Origin: Octopus vulgaris
Lineage: Eukaryota
Reading direction: 5' to 3'
Assembly (NCBI GenBank): GCA_951406725.2
Contig: OX597820.1
Coordinates: forward strand, 104,904,001 to 104,968,000
DNA length: 64,000 bases
Below, in pieces: positions 32,330 to 59,739 of the stretch (position 1 is the first letter of the stretch; the number at the start of each line of letters is the position of its first letter). The translations under genes and the position numbers were made by a program. The notes below the pieces were generated by a model, which worked only from the letters and a program-made list of their open reading frames with translations, had not been told where the DNA came from and searched no databases.

Positions 32330-32608
32330 ATCACGTGACCGACCAGACCATCAGATGTTGTTACACATCGCTGGTCACAATGCGTTCGCATTGTTTTAGC
32401 CTTCGAATGACGCCACCCCGCTGGGAAGGTTTACGAAAATAAACAAAAGACAAAGGCAGGTGGAGTACAAACAAACAAATGTATTAGTATAGCGCTCAGG
32501 AATAGAAATAGAAAAAGTCTTTTACGTTTCGAGCCTACGCTCTTCGACAGAAAGATACTCAGAAAAAAACAAGGAGAGAAAAAGTGCGTGTAGGAGCTAA
32601 CGATCTAA
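32323..32608 (-). mobile_element. Penelope 3'/pseudo-LTR fragment, inverted relative to the copy at 37503-37608
   Basis: 32502-32608 is the reverse complement of 37503-37608 and includes the hammerhead-like ctgtcgaagagcgtaggctcgaaacgta. Confidence 0.75.
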
Positions 32609-34592
32609 CAATCGAGTGGCAAAAAAGGGGCCTTCCACATGCTCATATCCTGCTTTGGCTCTCAGCGAAGATCAATTCCAATGACATCGACAACATAATC
32701 TCTGCAGAGCTTCCTGATCCAGCTTTAGACAAAGAACTATACGAAATAGTTAAAGCAAACATGGTACATAGTCCATGTGGGCGTGGATTCAACATAAACT
32801 CACCATGCTTGAAGGACAGCATATGTTCAAAAAGATTTCCAAGGAGGTTCCTACAAGAAACTCAGACAGGTGCTGATGGGTATCCATCATACAGACGCAG
32901 AAAACCAGAAGACGGAGGCTTCACAGCAACTATCGGACAGCACAATATTGATAATAGATGTTCCATACTGCCCACTCCTGTCAAAGACTTTCAATGCCCA
33001 CATTAACGTTGAGTTTTGCAACTCCGTTAAATCCATCAAGTACGTTTACAAATATGTAAACAAGGGTTCTGACGCTGCAATGTTTGGACTTCAACAAGAA
33101 TACTGCCAGGATGAGATGACGCATTATCAGGTGGGACGGTACATATGTAGCAACGAGGCTTTCTTGTGCATCTTTGGCTTTCCAATTCACCAACGACACC
33201 CCGCCATTCAACAGCTTGCAGTGCACCTGGAAAATGGTCAAAGAGTGTATTTCACTGATGCTAATGCTTCTCTGTTGGCAGAGGGAACCAAGGGATATCA
33301 TACTCACTGCATTCTTCAAGCTTTGTCAAGTGGATCCATTCGCTCAAACCTTGCTGTATCCACAGATTCCACCGTACTACACTTGGAATGGGAAAAAATG
33401 GGCCCCACGGAAAGCAGGTCAAAATGTTCATGGATACCTTGGCATTAAGTTTTACACTTGCCTTGGGCGAGTATACACAGTGCATCCCACTCAACAAGAG
33501 TGCTTCTACCTTCGTCTACTACTGCATGAGATCAGAGAGCCAACGTGTTTCCAGGTCCTAAAAACCGTTCGTGGAGAGAAGACTGCTATCGACAAGGTCT
33601 GTTAGAAGATGGTGTACAATGGGATGCAACTTTAGGAGAGGCTGCTTTATCACAATCACCAAAAAGTCTCAGGGCACTATTTGCAGTATTACTACAGGCA
33701 TGCGAACTGTGTGATCCGGCCAAATATAGAGACAACCTGGCTGAAGACTTTCAGCGCCAAGCTTAACTGCTCTATCCTGACATGGAGGGTATCAGCAATG
33801 AAATCTATAACAAAACACTCATTGACATTGAAGACAGGATTGCTAAACTGGGTGGAAATGAATTGTCGACGTATGGCCTGCCACAAGCATTCAGGTCAGG
33901 GTCAAATAACCTTCCCACTTCTGTCATTCGTGAAACAACCTACGACACTCAAGCGCTTTCAAAGTACATTGTTGAAAATAAGCCTAAGTTACTTCAAGTC
34001 TGTCGATACAATTCCAGATATAAATGAAGTTGTGAACTATCCTCCTGAATTTCTCAACTCACTGGAGCCTCCTGGACTACCTCCACACATATTAGCACTT
34101 AAAGTTGGAACTCCTGTAATGCTACTCCGCAAGACTTTGCAATGGAACACGACTGGTGATAAAGAAAATGATGTCACACGTTATCGAGGCGATCATTCTT
34201 TCTGGATGTGGAAAAGGTGATGACGTCTTTATCCCAAGAATTCCTCTTACTCCATCAGGAGCAGAAATTCCATTTACATTCAGAAGACTGCGATTCCCCC
34301 TTCGTGTCAGCTTTGCCATGTCCATTAACAAATCTTAGGGTCAAACCCACTCTGTAGCTGGTCTTCTCTTGGAAGAGCCCTGCTTCTCGCATGGGCAACT
34401 TTATGTTGGCTGCTCAAGAGTAGGAACCTTTTTGTATATGCTCCACAATGAAAAACAAAGGAACATTATTTACAACGAGGTGTTATAATCTCAACAGCCA
34501 GGAGGTATATACATGATCCCCTTTTTTTTAACAAACTTCATTTACTTTCATGTATTTATATTAATATACATATATATATATGTGTGTGTGTG

Positions 34593-34631
<39 letters not shown>

Positions 34632-34702
34632 CCATATATATATAACAGAAAAGTCTAATTCTTCAATTGAATGTAACCGGGCAACGCCGGGTATCTCTGC
34701 CA

Positions 34703-34704
<2 letters not shown>
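32609..34704 (+). mobile_element. Helitron RepHel pseudogene with 3' end
   Basis: HUH Rep motifs IEWQKRGLPHAHILLW, MVHSPCG, YPSYRRR, HINVEFC..SIKYVYKYVNKG. PIF1 C-terminal motifs [31 protein letters not shown]. Helicase N-terminal half deleted near 33990. 3' hairpin ccgggcaacgccggg followed by ccagt. Confidence 0.93.
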
Positions 34705-34736
<32 letters not shown>

Positions 34737-34738
<2 letters not shown>

Positions 34739-37608
34739 CTGACCTGGGCCGCCGACCATCCCAGTGGACGCCTTCCCCCGGCCAGTTCCAAGCAGTGGAT
34801 CTTTTCGCGGGTGCCTGTCAGCGCGCGTTGGAGCGGTTCAACTTCTCCAGGCGCCACCGCCGCCTCAACATCTCCCAGGCCGAGCTCTCGGCTCTTCGTT
34901 CCCTCCGACGGCGCGCTGACATTGTCATTAAACCGGCCGACAAGGGTGGAGCTGTGGTGGTGTGGCGCGCGGACCTCTACAGGGCCGAGGCGCTCCGCCA
35001 ACTCAATGACACCTCCTTCTACTCCCCTCTGTTCTCTGACCCCACGCTTAGCTACCAACAGACGGTCTCCTCTACTGTCCACGACCTCATCTCGTCCTCC
35101 CGTCTCCCCCACACCGCATCCAACCTCATTGTCCGAACCCCACGCACCCCCACCATTTACTTCCTCCCCAAAATCCACAAACCCAACAACCCTGGCCGCC
35201 CCATCGTCTCCGCCTGTAACTGCCCCACAGAGCTCATCTCAAAATACCTCGACCGTGTCCTTGACCCCCTAGTGGCGTCTCTTCCCTCTCACATCCACGA
35301 CACCAACCATGCTCTCCACCTTTTCAATTCTTTCTCCTTTCCTCCCGGCTCCTCCAAACTCCTCTTTACAATGGACATCCAGAGCCTCTATACCCTCATC
35401 CCTCACCACGAAGGACTGCGTGCACTTCAACACTTTCTCGACCTCTGCCCCAACCCCGAACCCGACACCTCCACACTCATTCGTCTGGCCGAACTTGTCC
35501 TTTCTCTTAACTGCTTCTCGTTCGCGGGTGAGTTCTACTAATAGGTCTCGGGAGTGGCCAGGGGAACGCGAATGGGCCCCAACTATGCGAACCTGTTCGT
35601 TGGCTATGTTGAGGCCCAAATATTCTCTAGTTTCACTGGTCCCACTCCCGAACTATACGGTCGTTACATTGACGACTGTATCGGTGCCATCTCACTCTCC
35701 CGCGAACATCTAGACTCCTTCCTCTCTTTCGTTCAATCCTTCCATCCTGCCCTCCACTTCACCTGCACTATCTCCAACACCTCTGTCTCCTTCCTCGACA
35801 TTTCGGTCAGCATTCATCACTCCACTCTTACCACCTCCATTCACTACAAACACACAGACTCACACTCATACCTAAACTTCTCTTCCTCCCACCCCAAATA
35901 CACCAAGCTTTCCATCCCCTGTTCCCAATTCCCCCGTCTACGTAGGCTCTGTAGTGATGAACATGACTTTGAGACTCAGTCTCAACTTATGGCTCGCCAC
36001 TTCATCCTACGTGGATACCCCCTCACTACTATCCACACCGCCCTTGCCAGAGCATGTTCCGTAGACCGTGCATCTGGTCTCTCCCCACGAACCCGCCCTG
36101 CAGTCTCCCGCCTTCCTTTTCCCCTCACTTACCACCCCACCACCCTACCTCTCCAACGCACCATTCTTCGAGCTTTCCGGCATCTCCAGTCCGACCCGTC
36201 CACTTCACACCTCTTCCCTAACCGACCCCTCCCCTCCTTCAAACGAGTCCATAACCTACGAGACCTCTTGGTCCACAGCTTCTTCCCCGACCCTACCTCC
36301 CAACCTGGCTCTTCCCCTGCTAGTGCCCACGTTGCCGCACTTGCCCTTACCTCTCCAATACCACCCTCCTCACCGGCACCTATCATCGACTCCTTCACCT
36401 GCACCTCCAGCAATATCATCTATTGCATCTCCTGCTCCCTCTGCCATTCCCTGTACATCAGACAAACGGGACGCCGCTTGGCTGACCGGTCCGCAGAGCA
36501 CCTCCGAGACATCCACCTCGCCAATGACACTCCTGTCTCGCGCCATTTCCGCTCCACCGGTCACTCCTTGCAACACCTGTCTGTGTTCAGATTGTCCTTG
36601 CACAGAGGCCATCCAGATTCCCGCTTACGCCGTGAACAGGGATTGATCTTCTCTCTTTGCTCTTTTACGCCATTTGGGCTCAACTCTCCCCCTTTTCATC
36701 TAACCTCCTCCCCGACTCCTACTTCTCTTCAGTCCTACATCTTTTCACCCCTACTCTCTTTCCCTCTTCTTCCCTCTTCTCCCTCTTCTTCTCTCTTCTG
36801 TCCTCTTCCCCTTCTCTCCCCTCTCCCTCTCCCTCCTCCTCTCCCTACCACTCCCCTCCTCCTCCTCATCTACCCCTCCCCTCTCTTCTATCCCCCATCC
36901 CCGTCCCCTCTCTTCTCTCCTCATATACCCACCTTCCGCTCCCCCTATAAACCCACCCACCCCTACTCCACCTTCCCTATTCTTCCCACCCCTTCCCCCA
37001 CTCTACCCCACACCCTCCCCTACACACCTCACCCCTATCCCACACCGCTCCCCCACATACCTCACCTCTAACCCCATCCTCTACCTACCCACAACCCCCA
37101 CTCTACCCCAACCCCCAGCCGAACCTACACCCCCACCTGTGCTTTCCCCATTCTCGCCTCCCCCACCTCCCCACAACATCACACCGCACTACACTACACC
37201 ATACAACATTACACATCACATCTCAACACACTACCTACAGCACACCGCCCACACACCCATCCCCACATCTTTACACCTACACATACATACACATCACATC
37301 ACAACACACTACCCACACACCCATGCCCACATCTCCACACCCACACATACATACACAAGTCCAGACCACCAGCCCTCTTTCACACGCACATACATACTCT
37401 CTTATACACACACGCACCTTCGTTTTGGAAGTCACTTGACCCTGTTATCTCCCCTACTGTCCTTCTCGCGTCTGACCACTGTCCGAAGTCAGGACGCCAT
37501 GATAGATCGTTAGCTCCTACACGCATTTTTTTCTCTCCTTGTTTTTTTCTGTGTATTTTTCTATCGAAGAGCGTAGGCTCGAAACGTAAAAGACGTTTTC
37601 TATTTCTA
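34737..37608 (+). mobile_element. Penelope-like retroelement (RT + GIY-YIG), 5'-truncated and disrupted
   Basis: IKPADKGGAVV, YFLPKIHK, GRPIVS, MDIQSLY, GTRMGP, RYIDD, SSHP. GIY-YIG IIYCISC..YIRQTGR..EH..R..EQ..GLN. TAA TAG at 35539-35544. Followed by a pyrimidine-rich tail and pseudo-LTR. Confidence 0.95.
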
Positions 37609-45986: not shown

Positions 45987-46222
45987 CTTCCTATGATTTT
46001 TGTTTGCTTTTAAATGTAAATACTTAAAAATAATTTTTTAAAAAATGTAACGAACTATGAGTGGCCATAATCTCAAGCAGATTCTTATATAACGCAGCTT
46101 TAACTGTATCGTTTAATTCACTGCATTTGTCTAAACAAGTTACCTTCAAATCAGTAATGGTGTGCTAAGCCATAAACTTGCACTCACACAAAACATACTG
46201 AACCTTGAAAACACTGTTTAAC

Positions 46223-46389
46223 TTATGTATACCATGGCCTTTTACGGATCCATCTGATGGTGTAGCCAGAGTCAACACGGATCTTGATTGATGCAGCCTC
46301 TGCAGCACGCACAGTTTCTTTGACTGACTGCATAAGGTTCTGAGCATTACCGACTAACATCTCTGTTGCATCTTGGTCTTCTTGAGAAC
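46223..46389 (-). CDS. VCL: Vinculin last coding exon (helix 5 and C-terminal extension) with TAA stop
   Basis: ctattttccag|GT TCT CAA... translates (G)[54 protein letters not shown]. This frame is not in the ORF track; read manually. Confidence 0.97.
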
Positions 46390-47052
46390 CTGGAAAATAG
46401 ATGCATTAATTTGTTTAATATTAAATAAATACATTGTATTTCTTGTTTCTTTATAAGATATGCTCCAACTCAAATCAACATACAAAGACCAGTAATAAGG
46501 GAAACAATAAAAATTGCCCTGATTCATTAGACTTCAAAAAACCTGGGATTTGCATCCAAGATTTAATTCAAATGCTTAAGCCCCCAAAATATTCTGGATG
46601 TAAATCAAATACTTCAGTCTAGGATAGCAATTCTGGACATCAGTTTTGCACACTAGTTTAGAAGAGGATTTTAGATAAAGAGTTTGGGAAAGGAGAAAGC
46701 AAAGATGGTTGACTGGCCATGAAGTGAACTGATTAACTATAGTTTATGGGTTCCAACCTTAACAATCAATGCAGTGTATTTGAAATCAGAATAAACTCTC
46801 CATTACAAGGACAAATTATAAGTCTTATCTGAGTCACACATCTTTAAAAAAAAAATGTTTCAATGAATGTTAAGAACTATCGAAATATAAACAATCTGAA
46901 AGTAAAATTTCTAAAAAATAGCATTTCCTGGTTCTAAACAGCATTTAGGGGTTAATCAAAAGAGGTTACTAAGCAGTACTGCAAAAAAGTACTCAGTAAT
47001 TATACACTGCAGGAAGTATTTAAGATTCTCTTTATCAAATTTAGCCTACATA

Positions 47053-48263
47053 TTGAGTCTCCCATAAATAATGCAGTATTTTATACTTTTTATTTTTCAA
47101 AATTAAGATAAATGAAGTTCTTTTTTAATCTAAAATATACTCTCCTTTTTCCACAATGCTCTTCCATTTATCTGGTAGACTTGCAAGGCCCCTCTTCCAG
47201 AATTCACTTGTCCATGATAAAAAATACTTCTCCAGCACTGTTCTGACCTTGTCTACAGAATTCATATTTTTTCCATCTAAATGATTTTGAAGACTGCAGA
47301 ATAAATGATAATCAAATGGTGTATTGTCCAGTGAATATGGTAGGTGGGTTATTGTTTCCCATTCCAACTACTCCAGCCTTTGGAATGTCATCCTCACTGT
47401 ATGTGGCCAAGCATTATCCTGATGGAAGAACACCTTCCGTCTTGAAACTAAAGATGGTCATTTTTCTTCTAGCGCTTGCAGTAGATCACCTTTGTTATCA
47501 TTTGGTTTGAGTTTAAAAATTCGAAGTTGATTAAACCTTTCATAACCCACCAAACAGATAACACCATCTTACATAGGTGAAGACCTGTAGCCTGGAGTGC
47601 CGGTGTTTCTCCTTTCCCTACCCACTGTCTTCAGACATCTTTATAGAGACTCATTTCTCGTCACCAATCATTATTCAGTCCAAAAAAAGTTCATTCGTGA
47701 GACGTGACAGCAAAGAAAGGCACACATTCACTCTCTGCATGTGATTAGATTCAGAAAGTTTGTGAGGGACCCATTGACTCAATTTTCCGACTTTTCCGAT
47801 GTTACACAGGTGTCGATGAATGGTTGACTGACCGAATCCAAGCTTCTCTGCTAGTTCTTCAAAAGTTACGATGGAATTTTATTTCACTAGGGTTTGCAGG
47901 ACTTCCTCATTGAGGTCTACAGATGAGGTTTGTCTTCTAGGCTGTAGTTTCTGGCTCAGAATTTATGGAACCACTGTTGACACTGGCTTCCATTTATTGT
48001 CCATTCCACATATACTACATTAATATTCCTCACACTTTCCATTGCATTGTTGCCTTTATTGAACTCATAAAGCAAAATAAGCCAAATAATATGCTCCTTT
48101 GTCATTCCCATTACAGATTTGAAAAAAAAAAATAACTTAAAATCGAACAGTACTCTTCAAAACTTGCACTAAGAATAACAAGTTGATGCAGGAAGTGTAT
48201 CCCATCCCTCTCTGACTCTTAGTTCATGCAATTGAAAATCACATTATTTATGGTATGACCCAA
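47053..48263 (-). mobile_element. Degenerate full-length mariner in the last vinculin intron
   Basis: Imperfect TIRs ttgagtctcccataaataatg / cattatttatggtatgacccaa, TA-flanked. Motifs WVPHKL, IGDEK, HLPYSLDNTPFDYHLFCSLQNHL..GEYILD. Confidence 0.9.
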
Positions 48264-49863
48264 TACATTTGCTATACCTTCATTTACATTCATATAACTA
48301 CTGGATTTTTAATTTACTCTGGATGGTTGATGTAAGAGACAGTAATAAAATAAAACATGAATATAAGCAAGAAGTTTATTGTAAAAACAAAATACACATT
48401 TTGTACATTCTCTTTTTATGAGAGACTGGGAAGCTATCGGTCATTCAGCAAGAAAATGTAAAAACTCTCACTTCAATTTTACTGTTTGCTAATAATATAA
48501 ATAATTTTTTCAACTAAAAGCACAAAACTTGAAATTTTTGGGGAGGATGTAAGTCGATTACAAAGGGATGAAAGGCAAAAACGACCTCAACGGACTTTAA
48601 ACTCAGAATGTAAAGACAGACAAAATGCTGCTAAGCATTTTGCCTGGTGTGCTGACAATTCTGCCAGCTCACCACTTTAATAATAATAATGATCCTTTCC
48701 ACAATAGGCATAAGACCTGAAATTTCGGGAGGGGGGGGGGGATTAATTACATTGACCCTAGTACTTACCTTATGTTTATTTTCTAGCCCTCAGAAATGAT
48801 AAAAGGCAGAGTGAATCAATACTCTGTGAACTCAGAATGTAAAGGTATACAACTAAATAGGCATTTCATTGACCACTGTACCAATCCTGCCATAATAATT
48901 TCTTACAGAGATGTAAAGCTACCAATTCTGGGAATAAAGTTAGTCAAGTGACTCCAACGCTAGTACTATATTTTATCAATCCAATTTAGGATCAAATATT
49001 GAATTCTAATATGAGCACAAAGCACCAAATTTCACAGAGAGAATAACAAGACAAAAAGCAAAATTAAAGCTGGTAGAGTTAAACATAAAGGGAGATAACC
49101 GAATTACTCCAACGCATTTTGTCAGACTGTCTACAATTCACACAATATCATTCATTTATCTGATTTGATTTGAAAATATGGAAGTAACTATACAAAATAT
49201 AAAATTCATTATAAATAAATAGATAAGTAAAAATAAAAATAGCTGATCTCAATGCAACATTTAATGTGCAAAACAGACAACTACATATTTTACCATCTGC
49301 CTTGAACTCTCATCATTGTTGTAGTGCACCTGAGCACTGTACACAATGTTTATTATTATTATTATTATCATGAACAGGAAGGAAGTCTAAATACTCAAAC
49401 TTTGGGGAAAAAGAATGCCAGAAACTAAGATATTCTAAATGGGTTCAAATACTAAATGCTGTTAATAAATCTAACAAGGGAAGATATCTTGGGGGAGAAA
49501 AAAAGGAGGGTGGGATTAAATAAAATATTTGGCTAGGAACAAGCTATACACATCAATTCTTAATAAAGGTGGTAGGTTTCTCATCAAAATAAGCATCATG
49601 GAATAAAACAAGCTAAACAATTTAAAACTAAAGAAAACAAAATTTTGTAAAAAGACAAAAGAATATGGATTATATCAATCAAATATAGATATATTTAGCA
49701 TTTTATTTTTATTTTTCGAATATGTTTCAATTTCTTGAGGTTAGGGGACAGGAGGAAACAGGTGGGCAAAAGTTCATGCCTTTCCGTAAGGGCTTAGCAG
49801 AACGAGAGCAGCAAAACCGCTTATGACAAGGCACCAAGCCAAGCCGTAACAGATCCAGCTTAC

Positions 49864-49875
49864 CCACAGCCAAAC
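49864..49875 (-). CDS. VCL: Candidate 12-nt microexon of vinculin (adds GLAV)
   Basis: ttatttccctttacacccttttctttctcgaaaTGCtttgtcgtaaag|GTTTGGCTGTGG|gtaagc: pyrimidine tract, then TGC, then AG, with a strong donor. Frame-preserving. GCATG at 49775-49779 downstream. Confidence 0.65.
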
Positions 49876-50396
49876 CTTTACGACAAAGCATTTCGAGAAA
49901 GAAAAGGGTGTAAAGGGAAATAACTCTTTTCTTTCTTTTTTGATTTATTTCATCAGTAAATTGTTATGAAAGTGATTCAAGACCCAAGAGCTTTACGGAA
50001 GCATTTACCGAAATAACGAAATTCTCATTCCTCGAGTCACTTTTCTAACTTTTCTCCAATCATAAATGTAATTAAAAAAAAAAAGAAGGTATATAATTTT
50101 AATATTTCTAATCAGCAGAAAGTTGAGTTCTATTTCTTGTTTGTTTTCCCAAACCTTTGTGTGTGTGTATCAAACTCTCTCTCTATAAAGTCAATTATAT
50201 ATATGAGGCAAAATAAGGATAGGATTGCATGCAGTTGGGTGGTGTGAACAAAGTAATGTGGTGAAGGTTTCACAGGCATGTAACACCCTCGCACAAACCC
50301 CAACTCTTTTTCAAATCAGAAAAATAAATAAATAAATAAACTCATTAAAAAAAAAAAATAACTGCAAACTGTTCAGCATGCATCAACAGTACTTAC

Positions 50397-50402
50397 TTGA
50401 TT
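50397..50402 (-). CDS. VCL: Candidate 6-nt microexon of vinculin (AATCAA)
   Basis: gatcacag|AATCAA|gtaagt with a perfect donor. About 75 nt free of AG upstream, containing branch-like TTAAC (50442-50446) and two TGC motifs. TGCATG at 50377-50382 and 50228-50233 downstream. Frame-preserving in phase 1. Confidence 0.55.
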
Positions 50403-52408
50403 CTGTGATCCCCAAGCGGCAGTGAATATAAACGGCAAAGTGTTAATAGCAAGAAATTATGGCAACATCACAATGATATCTTAAGTGTGTGTATGTAGCA
50501 TTTTTTTTTTTTTGCTTTTTTGCTTTTGTAAAAGATATTTGATTAAACAGACTGTTGCCCAAGTCAAGAAACAAAAAAGGATGATTAAACTGTTTTATTA
50601 CACACATACACACTCATAGAATTTTGGAGTTGTTCTGTTTTCTTTTTAATCAAACACTGTATGTAAAGTAGTGGCTTTCAACCATTTTTTGCCTTTGATT
50701 CCTATTTTACTCAGATGAATCCTTATAGCCATCCAGTATTTAAAATATTCTGTTATATTTTTTTATAATTAGATATTATTAGGAATTGTATTTAAAAAAA
50801 AAAAATGAAACTATTTTGTGTATTGTAGAAGTATAAATAATTTATCTGCACATAAACTTTAACAACAAAATCTTATATGGACTCCCAATGGTCATATGAA
50901 CTCTTGAGGATCCAAAACCGCTAAAGCAATAATAATCACTGTGTGTCTGAGAGAGGGGAAGAGGAATCAGGTCTTACAAAAATGTAATTCAGAGAAGTTA
51001 CTGTTCATTGAGAAATAACATAGTAACATGTAAATAGTTGTTTCTCATTTAGGCACAAGGCTAACAATTTTTAGGGTAGGCAGTTTGTCAGTATTACTGA
51101 CCCCAGTACTTGACTGGTACTTTATTTTATTGACCTCAGAAGGACAAATGGCAAAGTTGACCTTTACATGATTTCAACTTAGAATTAACATATGATAAAA
51201 CTCTAAAGAGATGAAAGCACAAAGCTGGCCCTAACAAGATTTGATATATATTGTGATCTCCAGTTCATTTTTTTTTAAATATATAGTTTGCTTCAGCCTT
51301 ATTTTAAGTTCACCACTGAAAGTATTTAAAAGAATAGAACCAATGAAAGTGTCCACTTATGGTCCAACAACATGCCAGAAATAACAAACCAAATCTCTCC
51401 CTCTAATCATACTTCTATCTAAGAAAAAAAGACATCAAAAAATGTTGTGTTCAAATTGTGTCATGCCAAGAGGTCATGAGTGGAATATTTTTGAACATCA
51501 GTTGCCTCAGTCAGAGCTAACCTGGGGCTAAATAACAGCTAAAATCTTATTTTTTTTATCTTGAATTATAGTTAATATTTGAGGAAAATAACTAATTAAA
51601 GTGGAGAGTGACAGAACAGTTGTGTTGTCGAATATAGAAGAAATGTAAATTTAAATAATAATTCTCATAACAAAAAGTAAAATGCATTTAGAATCACTAT
51701 ACATAGTGAATAAGGAACTATAATTCATATAATTGTGTGAGCTAATGCAATATACCTTGTACAAGTAAGTATACAAATTAAAGTATCTGGAATAAGTAAA
51801 CTGACAAATATACCTTTAGTCTCTCTAGAATATATATATATATATATAAGATTCAGTTGAATTAGGTACTTAAGTTGAGGAACCAAGTCAGTCCGATATT
51901 GTCTCTGCACAGCTCGAAGTTAGGTGAATAAAAAGCAAATAAGTAACAAGAATGTTCAGGTATTAGTGCATTCTTTTATTCTCTAGTTCTGATGAAAGAT
52001 TTGCTATAAAATTATAATGGGGTATCCTATATGTTGAAAACCTGTATGGTCTTATTTCAAATTGATGTAATGCTTGCATTGATTAATAAAATGGAGCCGC
52101 TTGAAATGGCCATAATGCACTAATTCCTGGACATCCTTGTTACTTATTTGCTTCATATATATATATATATATATATATACTCAAAATAAGCAACAAGAAT
52201 AACTTCGGTTGCTTATTTTGATTATAATCACCCCATGGAATTTATATGGATAACACCATACAAAATTCTGGTGCATCTAACTTAAGTACCATATTCATTT
52301 GAATCTAAATTTTGCTGAACTTATTTGTATATATATATATATATAGTGTTCTTTATTTTTTATGCCCTATAAATTCCATATCATTTCCAGTAATTTGGTA
52401 TGTATGTA

Positions 52409-53123: not shown

Positions 53124-53162
53124 CACAGGCAATCTCGCTACCATCAGGTGCTGGAATTGGCT
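53124..53162 (-). CDS. VCL: Candidate 39-nt alternative cassette exon of vinculin (adds EPIPAPDGSEIAC)
   Basis: atttgattctccag|AGCCAATTCCAGCACCTGATGGTAGCGAGATTGCCTGTG|gtaatt. Symmetric phase 1-1, open frame, coding-like GC content in an AT-rich intron. TGCATG 30 nt downstream (53088-53093). Confidence 0.75.
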
Positions 53163-58406: not shown

Positions 58407-58691
<285 letters not shown>

Positions 58692-59615: not shown

Positions 59616-59739
59616 AGTTCTCATTCTCTTGTCAGTACATTCAAGGGCAAGGATCTTCGCTAACCGGGTCACTTCTTCTGAGGCCTCAGCTATAGCTTTA
59701 GCAGTTGCAATCAAATCTTTCTTGCTTCCACCTTCACCT
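59616..59739 (-). CDS. VCL: Vinculin internal coding exon (tail domain, helix 3 region), phase 2 to 0
   Basis: Translates (R)[41 protein letters not shown], matching the invertebrate vinculin tail. Acceptor ttttgttcatccaccag, donor ACT|gtaagc. 124 nt = 1 nt + 41 codons. Confidence 0.96.

What the first reader, a model, noticed from the sequence alone, without database searches (positions are those of the whole stretch)
50228..50480. 6-nt microexon candidate with perfect donor, AG-exclusion zone and paired Rbfox sites
Seen: cacag|AATCAA|gtaagt, no other AG for about 75 nt upstream, TTAAC about 40 nt upstream, two UGC between branch site and AG, and UGCAUG 14 nt and ~165 nt after the donor. The next upstream AG (50480) would give an 83-nt exon with a stop, so only the 6-nt form keeps the frame. 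Inference: inclusion changes G to E-S-S, adding potential phospho-acceptor serines to the loop.
Basis: partly seen in the sequence, partly recalled or inferred. Interest (0 to 1): 0.7.

Follow-up and report, generated by a model that had tools for sequence, protein, structure and literature searches.

The report
Ancient two-codon vinculin microexon in octopus
A six-letter optional exon in the octopus gene for the adhesion protein vinculin, also spliced in by other molluscs and apparently by annelid worms, adds two residues to a loop that in human vinculin helps lock the protein shut and grip actin, so it likely tunes adhesion in some cell types, though which cells use it is untested.

Summary
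On the minus strand, AATCAA (50402-50397) is a 6-nt cassette exon in the last intron of an octopus vinculin gene. Spliced in silico, it gives C-termini identical to 7 of 10 O. sinensis RefSeq isoforms fetched, so a close relative's gene models already list it. The same G-to-ESS change occurs in scallop and oyster models that also list the skipped form, in assembled cephalopod and bivalve sequences, and in two records grouping with annelids. It lies in the tail's helix 4-helix 5 loop and restores the vertebrate loop length, between positions matching human R1008 and D1013/E1015, published head-tail lock and actin catch-bond residues. Its signals fit eMIC/Srrm- and Rbfox-regulated microexons, and the genome has an eMIC-domain hit. 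Tissue specificity, regulators, phosphorylation and function are untested. The junction did not appear in contigs of four runs, which cannot show absence. My searches found no paper on it, and the scan had not noted it before. Verdict: a real, old, undescribed member of a known class.

The parts
50397..50402 (-). 6-nt cassette microexon AATCAA, phase 1-1; changes G to E-S-S in the vinculin tail H4-H5 loop
   Evidence: ESS isoforms
50403..50479 (-). 3' splice-site region: CAG acceptor, 75-nt AG-free zone, branch-like TTAAC at 50446, TGC at 50437 and 50421, pyrimidines 9 of 17 next to the AG and 16 of 25 further upstream
50391..50396 (-). 5' splice site GTAAGT (8 of 9 consensus positions)
50377..50382 (-). 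TGCATG, putative Rbfox site 1 (15 nt into the intron)
   Evidence: function inferred from PMC4317164
50228..50233 (-). TGCATG, putative Rbfox site 2 (164 nt into the intron)
   Evidence: function inferred
53124..53162 (-). 39-nt cassette exon (EPIPAPDGSEIAC) in the same intron, combining independently with the microexon; TGCATG 31 nt downstream
   Evidence: its junction to the last exon is in contigs of runs X1, X12, X14
58442..58532 (-). upstream constitutive vinculin exon (tail helix 4, ends ...MLGAQ + G)
46223..46389 (-). last coding exon of vinculin (tail helix 5 and C-terminus, to the stop codon)
   Evidence: (PF01044, E 3.1e-22)
59616..59738 (-). vinculin tail exon (helix 3 region), further upstream
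   Evidence: (PF01044, E 1.8e-12)

Best explanation
The site is a real, frame-preserving, alternatively spliced 6-nt exon of octopus vinculin, shared with bivalves and probably annelids, that is likely switched on in excitable cells by eMIC/Srrm and Rbfox proteins and is predicted to loosen the tail loop that carries head-lock and actin contacts. SHOWN: the gene, the splice signals and the G-to-ESS product in sister-species models and assembled sequences; independent combination with a 39-nt exon (four loop versions); the position at human 1010-1012; loop length 9 to 11 residues, equal to vertebrates. PREDICTED: the 3-residue turn between helices 4 and 5 becomes a 7-residue low-confidence loop, while helix 5 starts at the same residue. 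INFERRED: skipped by default because the exon is too short and its 3' site weak; included where eMIC acts at the UGC motifs and Rbfox binds downstream; inclusion shifts the residues matching R1008 and D1013 and adds negative charge beside the conserved E1015/E1021, changing how easily vinculin opens or how it holds actin under load. Odds by step: real exon about 0.95; neural-biased inclusion about 0.6; measurable effect on autoinhibition or actin binding about 0.45.
For: Identity: Pfam vinculin; 23 exon matches, all at one locus. Product: the in-silico microexon form equals P0123 (O. sinensis X3), and the 39-nt + microexon form equals six further O. sinensis isoforms, over the whole C-terminal 87 and 100 aa. 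ESS is in 26 of 330 proteins with a readable loop, of 348 fetched: O. sinensis 7 of 10, Pecten maximus 10 of 13, Mizuhopecten X4, two Crassostrea gigas models, each species also having forms without it. P0011 is a 961-aa ORF on contigs of at most 4.2 kb while the gene here spans over 100 kb, so it is mRNA-derived (inference); it groups with cephalopods beside its skip form P0013. P0139 groups with the leech Helobdella (support 100) and P0086 with annelids (89) in the quick tree. Signals match published eMIC targets: AG exclusion zone, UGC near the 3' site, distant branch point, strong donor in vertebrates (10.1101/2021.02.24.432780 passages; 10.1101/2024.09.17.613571 introduction and passages). 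Downstream TGCATG marks alternative microexons (PMC4317164 passages). An eMIC-domain (PF15230) hit over the cut-off is in the genome. Structure: the ESS form aligns without gaps to human tail structures. R1008 and E1015 are computed anchors of tail to head (PMC5807537 passages). D1013 and E1015 are two of four residues whose mutation opens vinculin (PMC10354202 passages). R1008 bonds actin, and E1015/E1021 are proposed catch-bond residues (PMC10721916 passages). AlphaFold pair: H4 883-903 / H5 907 skipped, H4 883-901 / H5 909 included.
Against: No transcript of the window's own species carrying the exon was seen: 0 of 4 O. vulgaris and 0 of 5 O. bimaculoides proteins with a readable loop have it. 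It was not met in any named gastropod, chiton (0 of 5), nemertean (0 of 2), heterodont bivalve or arthropod record fetched; automatic models often miss microexons, so loss and oversight cannot be told apart. No tissue labels were available, so neural bias rests on motifs only, and Rbfox sites fit muscle as well. The Rbfox domain search gave no hit and was uninformative. The annelid placement rests on two unnamed records, one filling only 17% of the columns, in a quick tree without bootstrap, and their exon structure is unknown. The low pLDDT of the included loop may reflect that few of the 51 aligned rows carry it. The residues matching human R1008 and D1013 are A and S in octopus, so human contacts need not carry over. 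The same junction accepts many unrelated inserts, which suggests a tolerant loop.
Confidence: 0.65

Rival explanations
1. The exon is real, but its purpose is a phosphorylation switch: it adds serines in an acidic context so that a CK2-type kinase can regulate the tail.
For: S/T-x-x-D/E sites in the loop rise from 1 to 2 in octopus and from 1 to 3 in P0011 and Pecten. The serines are invariant in all 26 ESS records. The loop is predicted flexible. The unrelated-looking crustacean insert also ends in two serines.
Against: No phosphoproteomic evidence was seen. One such site exists without the exon. The kinase consensus is recalled, not tested. It is not exclusive of the best explanation.
Confidence: 0.2
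2. The exon is real but mainly a muscle or Rbfox-only exon, a small invertebrate analogue of metavinculin, and not an eMIC neural microexon.
For: There are two downstream TGCATG, and RBFOX promotes microexons in brain, muscle and heart (PMC4317164). The neighbouring 39-nt exon also has a downstream TGCATG. ESS is in 10 of 13 Pecten models.
Against: The 75-nt AG-free zone with UGC at 19 and 35 nt is the eMIC-type layout, and the 39-nt exon lacks UGC in its last 40 nt. RefSeq isoform counts do not measure inclusion.
Confidence: 0.25
3. The exon is inherited but spliced rarely or with no effect in this species, because the loop tolerates any short in-frame insert.
For: It is absent from the O. 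vulgaris and O. bimaculoides proteins fetched. At least six unrelated inserts occur at the same junction in other lineages.
Against: The same residues are kept across cephalopods, bivalves and annelid-grouping records, the donor is near-perfect, and the regulatory layout is intact.
Confidence: 0.1
4. The site is a chance arrangement of intronic letters.
For: The loose pattern (YAG, short frame-preserving stretch, GTRAGT) arises about 1.3 times per simulated intron.
Against: The predicted product matches seven O. sinensis proteins letter for letter and recurs in distant molluscs.
Confidence: 0.02

Closest known systems
NCBI automatic isoform models of O. sinensis vinculin (XP_036360819.1 X3, XP_036360818.1 X1, XP_036360826.1 X11) and of Pecten maximus, Mizuhopecten yessoensis and Crassostrea gigas vinculin
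   Same: The same G-to-ESS insertion at the same junction, alone or after the 39-nt exon.
   Different: These are unannotated automatic models without tissue, regulation or function. The O. vulgaris proteins fetched lack it (0 of 4).
eMIC / SRRM3/4-dependent neural microexons (10.1101/2021.02.24.432780; 10.1101/2024.09.17.613571; human TAF1 6-nt exon 34', PMC6948980, abstract start only)
   Same: Length 3-27 nt, frame-preserving, long AG exclusion zone, UGC between branch point and AG, strong donor, insertion in a surface loop.
   Different: Neural inclusion and eMIC dependence are not shown here. No vinculin microexon appeared in the papers searched.
RBFOX-enhanced alternative micro-exons (PMC4317164)
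   Same: TGCATG in the downstream intron flank.
   Different: Human data. Rbfox binding is untested here and the Rbfox gene was not located.
Metavinculin (vertebrate VCL 68-residue tail insert)
   Same: Alternative splicing of the vinculin tail within one gene.
   Different: A far larger insert, upstream of the region aligned here (numbering offset of 68; its place near helix 1 is recalled), not in the H4-H5 loop.
alphaN-catenin II (48-residue C-terminal alternative insert; PMC5505122 passages)
   Same: An alternative insert in the C-terminal region of a vinculin-family protein.
   Different: A different gene and size. That it lies in the equivalent H4-H5 loop is recalled and was not tested.

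Membership tests
Vinculin gene | Vinculin domain match, full exon series and fold | tested here: met
   PF01044; 23 exon matches at one locus; a model of the relative P0011 best matches human vinculin 1tr2, E 3.2e-50
Alternative microexon | 3-27 nt between AG and GT, frame-preserving | tested here: met
Alternative microexon | Both included and skipped products exist for one gene | tested here: met
   O. sinensis X3 versus X5; Pecten, Mizuhopecten, C. gigas; P0011 versus P0013
Alternative microexon | Junction reads from the window's own species | tested here: inconclusive
   Only assembled contigs could be laid; they show presence, not absence
eMIC/SRRM-dependent neural microexon | Long AG exclusion zone, distant branch point, UGC near the 3' site, weak proximal pyrimidine tract | tested here: met
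   75 nt, TTAAC about 40 nt upstream, TGC at 19 and 35 nt, pyrimidines 9 of 17; the branch point is a motif match only
eMIC/SRRM-dependent neural microexon | Regulator with an eMIC domain encoded in the genome | tested here: met
   PF15230 hit, 32.6 bits over a cut-off of 27, G000:C25; a single partial exon, expression not tested
eMIC/SRRM-dependent neural microexon | Neuron-biased inclusion | not testable with these tools
   Runs are coded, without tissue labels, and held as contigs
eMIC/SRRM-dependent neural microexon | Inclusion depends on eMIC | not testable with these tools
   Needs a minigene or knockdown
RBFOX-enhanced microexon | TGCATG in the downstream flank | tested here: met
   15 and 164 nt into the intron
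RBFOX-enhanced microexon | Rbfox protein present and binding | tested here: inconclusive
   PF12414 gave no hit and no control rang either; binding not testable
Metavinculin-type insert | About 68-residue insert at the start of the tail | tested here: not met
   Net insert of two residues in the H4-H5 loop

The most novel reading that the evidence does not exclude
A neuron-specific two-codon switch, kept since the common ancestor of molluscs and annelids and perhaps homologous to the crustacean 18-nt exon that also begins with E and ends in SS, toggles vinculin between a short invertebrate tail loop and a vertebrate-length loop. It thereby sets the head-tail lock and the directional actin catch bond cell type by cell type: splicing control of a mechanosensor's force response, in a loop that protostomes have repeatedly used for alternative exons.
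Probability: 0.2. Interest if true: 0.72.

Novelty: new member of a known kind. Interest (0 to 1): 0.43.

Why it matters
Old microexons outside vertebrates and flies are poorly catalogued, and this one falls in a loop whose human counterpart has mapped roles in autoinhibition and force-dependent actin binding. The two natural forms differ by one G-to-ESS change, so they are a ready-made pair for testing whether splicing tunes vinculin mechanics. The exon would also serve as a simple reporter for eMIC and Rbfox activity in cephalopod neurons. If inclusion proves unregulated or without effect, it is only an annotation fix for this genome.

Tried and rejected
Sequencing runs: no RNA holder listed on record; RNA status is a guess for the runs used. 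laid 4 of the 24 runs on 46000-52100; repeats swamped the tables. It showed contigs across the microexon locus in X1 and in X16 (organism C, 50350-50682, 3 other letters, 13 gaps), but 171 difference rows were not shown, so identity of the splice sites in organism C is not established. laid X1, X12, X14 and X16 on the last exon's acceptor: the skip junction was in 4 of 4 and the 39-nt exon junction in 3 of 4; a microexon junction was in 0 of 4. Contigs drop rare variants and some records are filtered, so this does not show absence. The 12-nt candidate exon at 49875-49864 was rejected for now: no product among the proteins fetched. The 83-nt form was rejected: early stop. The Rbfox C-terminal family search was uninformative. 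No relatives' genomes are held, so intronic conservation could not be aligned. The careful tree did not finish; the quick tree of 30 rows was used, with 3 listed rows (P0002, P0023, P0035) left out before building. One search's splice test had an off-by-one boundary and was redone. Literature: searches for vinculin + microexon (33 papers, 25 listed), microexon + octopus, vinculin + alternative splicing + mollusc + isoforms + exon, a six-term cephalopod/annelid search (20 of 1,418 listed) and vinculin + octopus + splicing showed no description of this exon in titles and abstract starts. The preprint 10.64898/2026.09.05.749416 has no 'vinculin' or 'VCL' in its main text, but its supplements are closed. 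Torres-Mendez et al. 2019 is not held. Exon tables in either could list it.

Full report
Observation. Of 18 loose microexon-like patterns on both strands of the window, only this one has all the extra features; a simulated 12-kb intron gave the composite once in 300 runs (features chosen after the fact). The 83-nt alternative has an early stop.

Gene. The window is G000:C7:104904001-104968000. The flanking exons encode the vinculin tail (Pfam PF01044). The last exon's 54 residues are identical to Octopus vulgaris, O. sinensis and O. bimaculoides vinculin. All 23 exon matches to a full-length query lie at this one locus, over more than 100 kb (a stricter first look was used, so this is a floor). 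The 12,051-nt last intron (58441 to 46390 region) holds a 39-nt cassette exon at 53162-53124 and the 6-nt exon.

The exon is real. Splicing window exons by coordinates gave C-termini identical to stored proteins for four combinations: skip (7 proteins), 39-nt only (6), microexon only (P0123, O. sinensis X3) and both (6 O. sinensis isoforms); forms with the 12-nt candidate at 49875 matched none. X3 and X5 differ only by G versus ESS. That RefSeq XP models are built on RNA-seq alignments is recalled; I did not see their reads. Independent support comes from assembled sequences: P0011 is a complete 961-aa ORF on contigs of at most 4.2 kb, so it must come from mRNA, and it is 99.9% identical to the skip form P0013.

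Depth. ESS is in 26 of 330 proteins with a readable loop, of 348 fetched (the searches list only the best 120 hits each and two were aimed at ESS forms, so this is not a survey). Named carriers are O. sinensis (7 of 10), Pecten maximus (10 of 13), Mizuhopecten yessoensis (one model) and Crassostrea gigas (two models), each with forms lacking it. Unnamed carriers group with cephalopods (P0011), mussels (P0138), other bivalves (P0045), the leech Helobdella (P0139, support 100) and annelids (P0086, support 89, short fragment) in a quick IQ-TREE run. If the annelid records carry the same exon, it predates the mollusc-annelid split (Cambrian or earlier, recalled). It was not met in the O. vulgaris (0 of 4), O. 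bimaculoides (0 of 5), gastropod, chiton, nemertean or arthropod records fetched. The same junction carries other inserts elsewhere: EILIGSS and ECFPRRESEL in crustaceans, VGMADFK in Cydia moths, EQEC in Mytilus, a 14-residue insert in Haliotis, and the 39-nt exon in molluscs, Owenia and Tubulanus.

Reads. Only assembled contigs of coded runs were available. They showed the skip junction in 4 of 4 runs, the 39-nt junction in 3 of 4, and the microexon junction in none. Contigs cannot show absence and tissues are unknown, so use in this species and tissue pattern remain open.

Regulation (inferred). The layout matches published eMIC/SRRM3/4 targets: long AG exclusion zone, UGC near the 3' site, branch point set back (10.1101/2021.02.24.432780, passages), and a strong donor with a weak proximal 3' context in vertebrates (10.1101/2024.09.17.613571, introduction and passages). 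Fly eMIC exons have weak donors by the first paper, so the strong donor here is vertebrate-like. Downstream TGCATG is enriched at alternative microexons, and RBFOX promotes them in brain, muscle and heart (PMC4317164, passages). The genome has an eMIC-domain hit; Rbfox was not located (uninformative).

Protein consequence. The included form aligns without gaps to human tail structures; with the offset to 1tr2 the new residues sit at 1010-1012, and the loop grows from 9 to 11 residues, the vertebrate length. E1015 and E1021 are kept in octopus; R1008 and D1013 are A and S. In vertebrate vinculin, R1008 and E1015 are computed tail anchors on the head (PMC5807537, passages), mutation of D1013 and E1015 with K944 and R945 weakens the head-tail lock (PMC10354202, passages), R1008 bonds actin and E1015/E1021 are proposed to form the directional catch bond (PMC10721916, passages), and the residue matching M1005 touches actin (PMC7588232, passages). 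AlphaFold2 models of the pair P0013/P0011 give a 3-residue turn when skipped and a 7-residue loop with pLDDT under 50 at 903-907 when included, with helix 5 starting at the same residue; low confidence may reflect few included rows in the alignment. My best reading is that inclusion loosens and acidifies this turn and so shifts opening or load-bearing. Added CK2-type sites are a compatible second route.

Comparison and verdict. It works like an eMIC/Rbfox-type tissue microexon and meets the sequence criteria, but neural inclusion and eMIC dependence could not be tested, so I file it as an alternative microexon with probable, not proven, membership of the neural class. It is not a metavinculin-type insert. 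It is already implicit in automatic gene models of a sister species and three bivalves. Five literature searches showed no description in listings, though unseen supplements may list it. The scan's notes hold nothing on this place and no vinculin microexon; they mention other alternative exons of invertebrate vinculins, unchecked by me. Interest 0.43: real, old and well placed for a clean test, but of a known kind.

Noticed in passing
window 53162-53124 (-): 39-nt cassette exon EPIPAPDGSEIAC in the same loop, nearly invariant in molluscs, Owenia and Tubulanus, with TGCATG 31 nt downstream; seen in contigs of 3 of 4 runs. It is a larger and more widespread modifier of the loop than the microexon.
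   Followed up: partly
proteins P0142-P0159, P0204, P0328-P0335: Crustacean vinculins have an optional insert at the same junction (EILIGSS; ACLIGSS in Armadillidium) that starts with E and ends in SS like ESS; homology or convergence is unresolved.
   Followed up: no
proteins P0140, P0077, P0320, P0341: Further lineage-specific inserts at the same junction (Mytilus EQEC, Haliotis 14 residues, crayfish and mantis shrimp ECFPRR..., Cydia VGMADFK): a splicing hot spot in the vinculin tail.
   Followed up: no
window 49875-49864 (-): 12-nt frame-preserving candidate (AAG acceptor, GTAAGC donor, 46-nt AG-free zone, one TGC, 23 of 25 pyrimidines upstream); no protein support among those fetched.
   Followed up: partly
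G000:C25:37317492-37317626 (L001 1501-1635): eMIC (SRRM_C, PF15230) domain exon of the probable Srrm234 gene.
   Followed up: partly
P0122/P0123 residues about 955-970; upstream of window 59738: These O. sinensis isoforms carry a cysteine- and tryptophan-rich insert between tail helices 2 and 3 that P0011 lacks; its genomic source was not traced.
   Followed up: no
window 34489-37068 (+): Long open frames resembling a Penelope-type reverse transcriptase with endonuclease (recognised by eye, not searched).
   Followed up: no
window 11512-6600 (-): Fragmented LINE-like endonuclease and reverse transcriptase frames (recognised by eye, not searched).
   Followed up: no
window 15146-14187 (-), 47367-47128 (-), 32512-34335 (+), 24475-23984 (-): Mariner-like transposase fragments and Helitron/Pif1-like helicase fragments (recognised by eye, not searched).
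   Followed up: no
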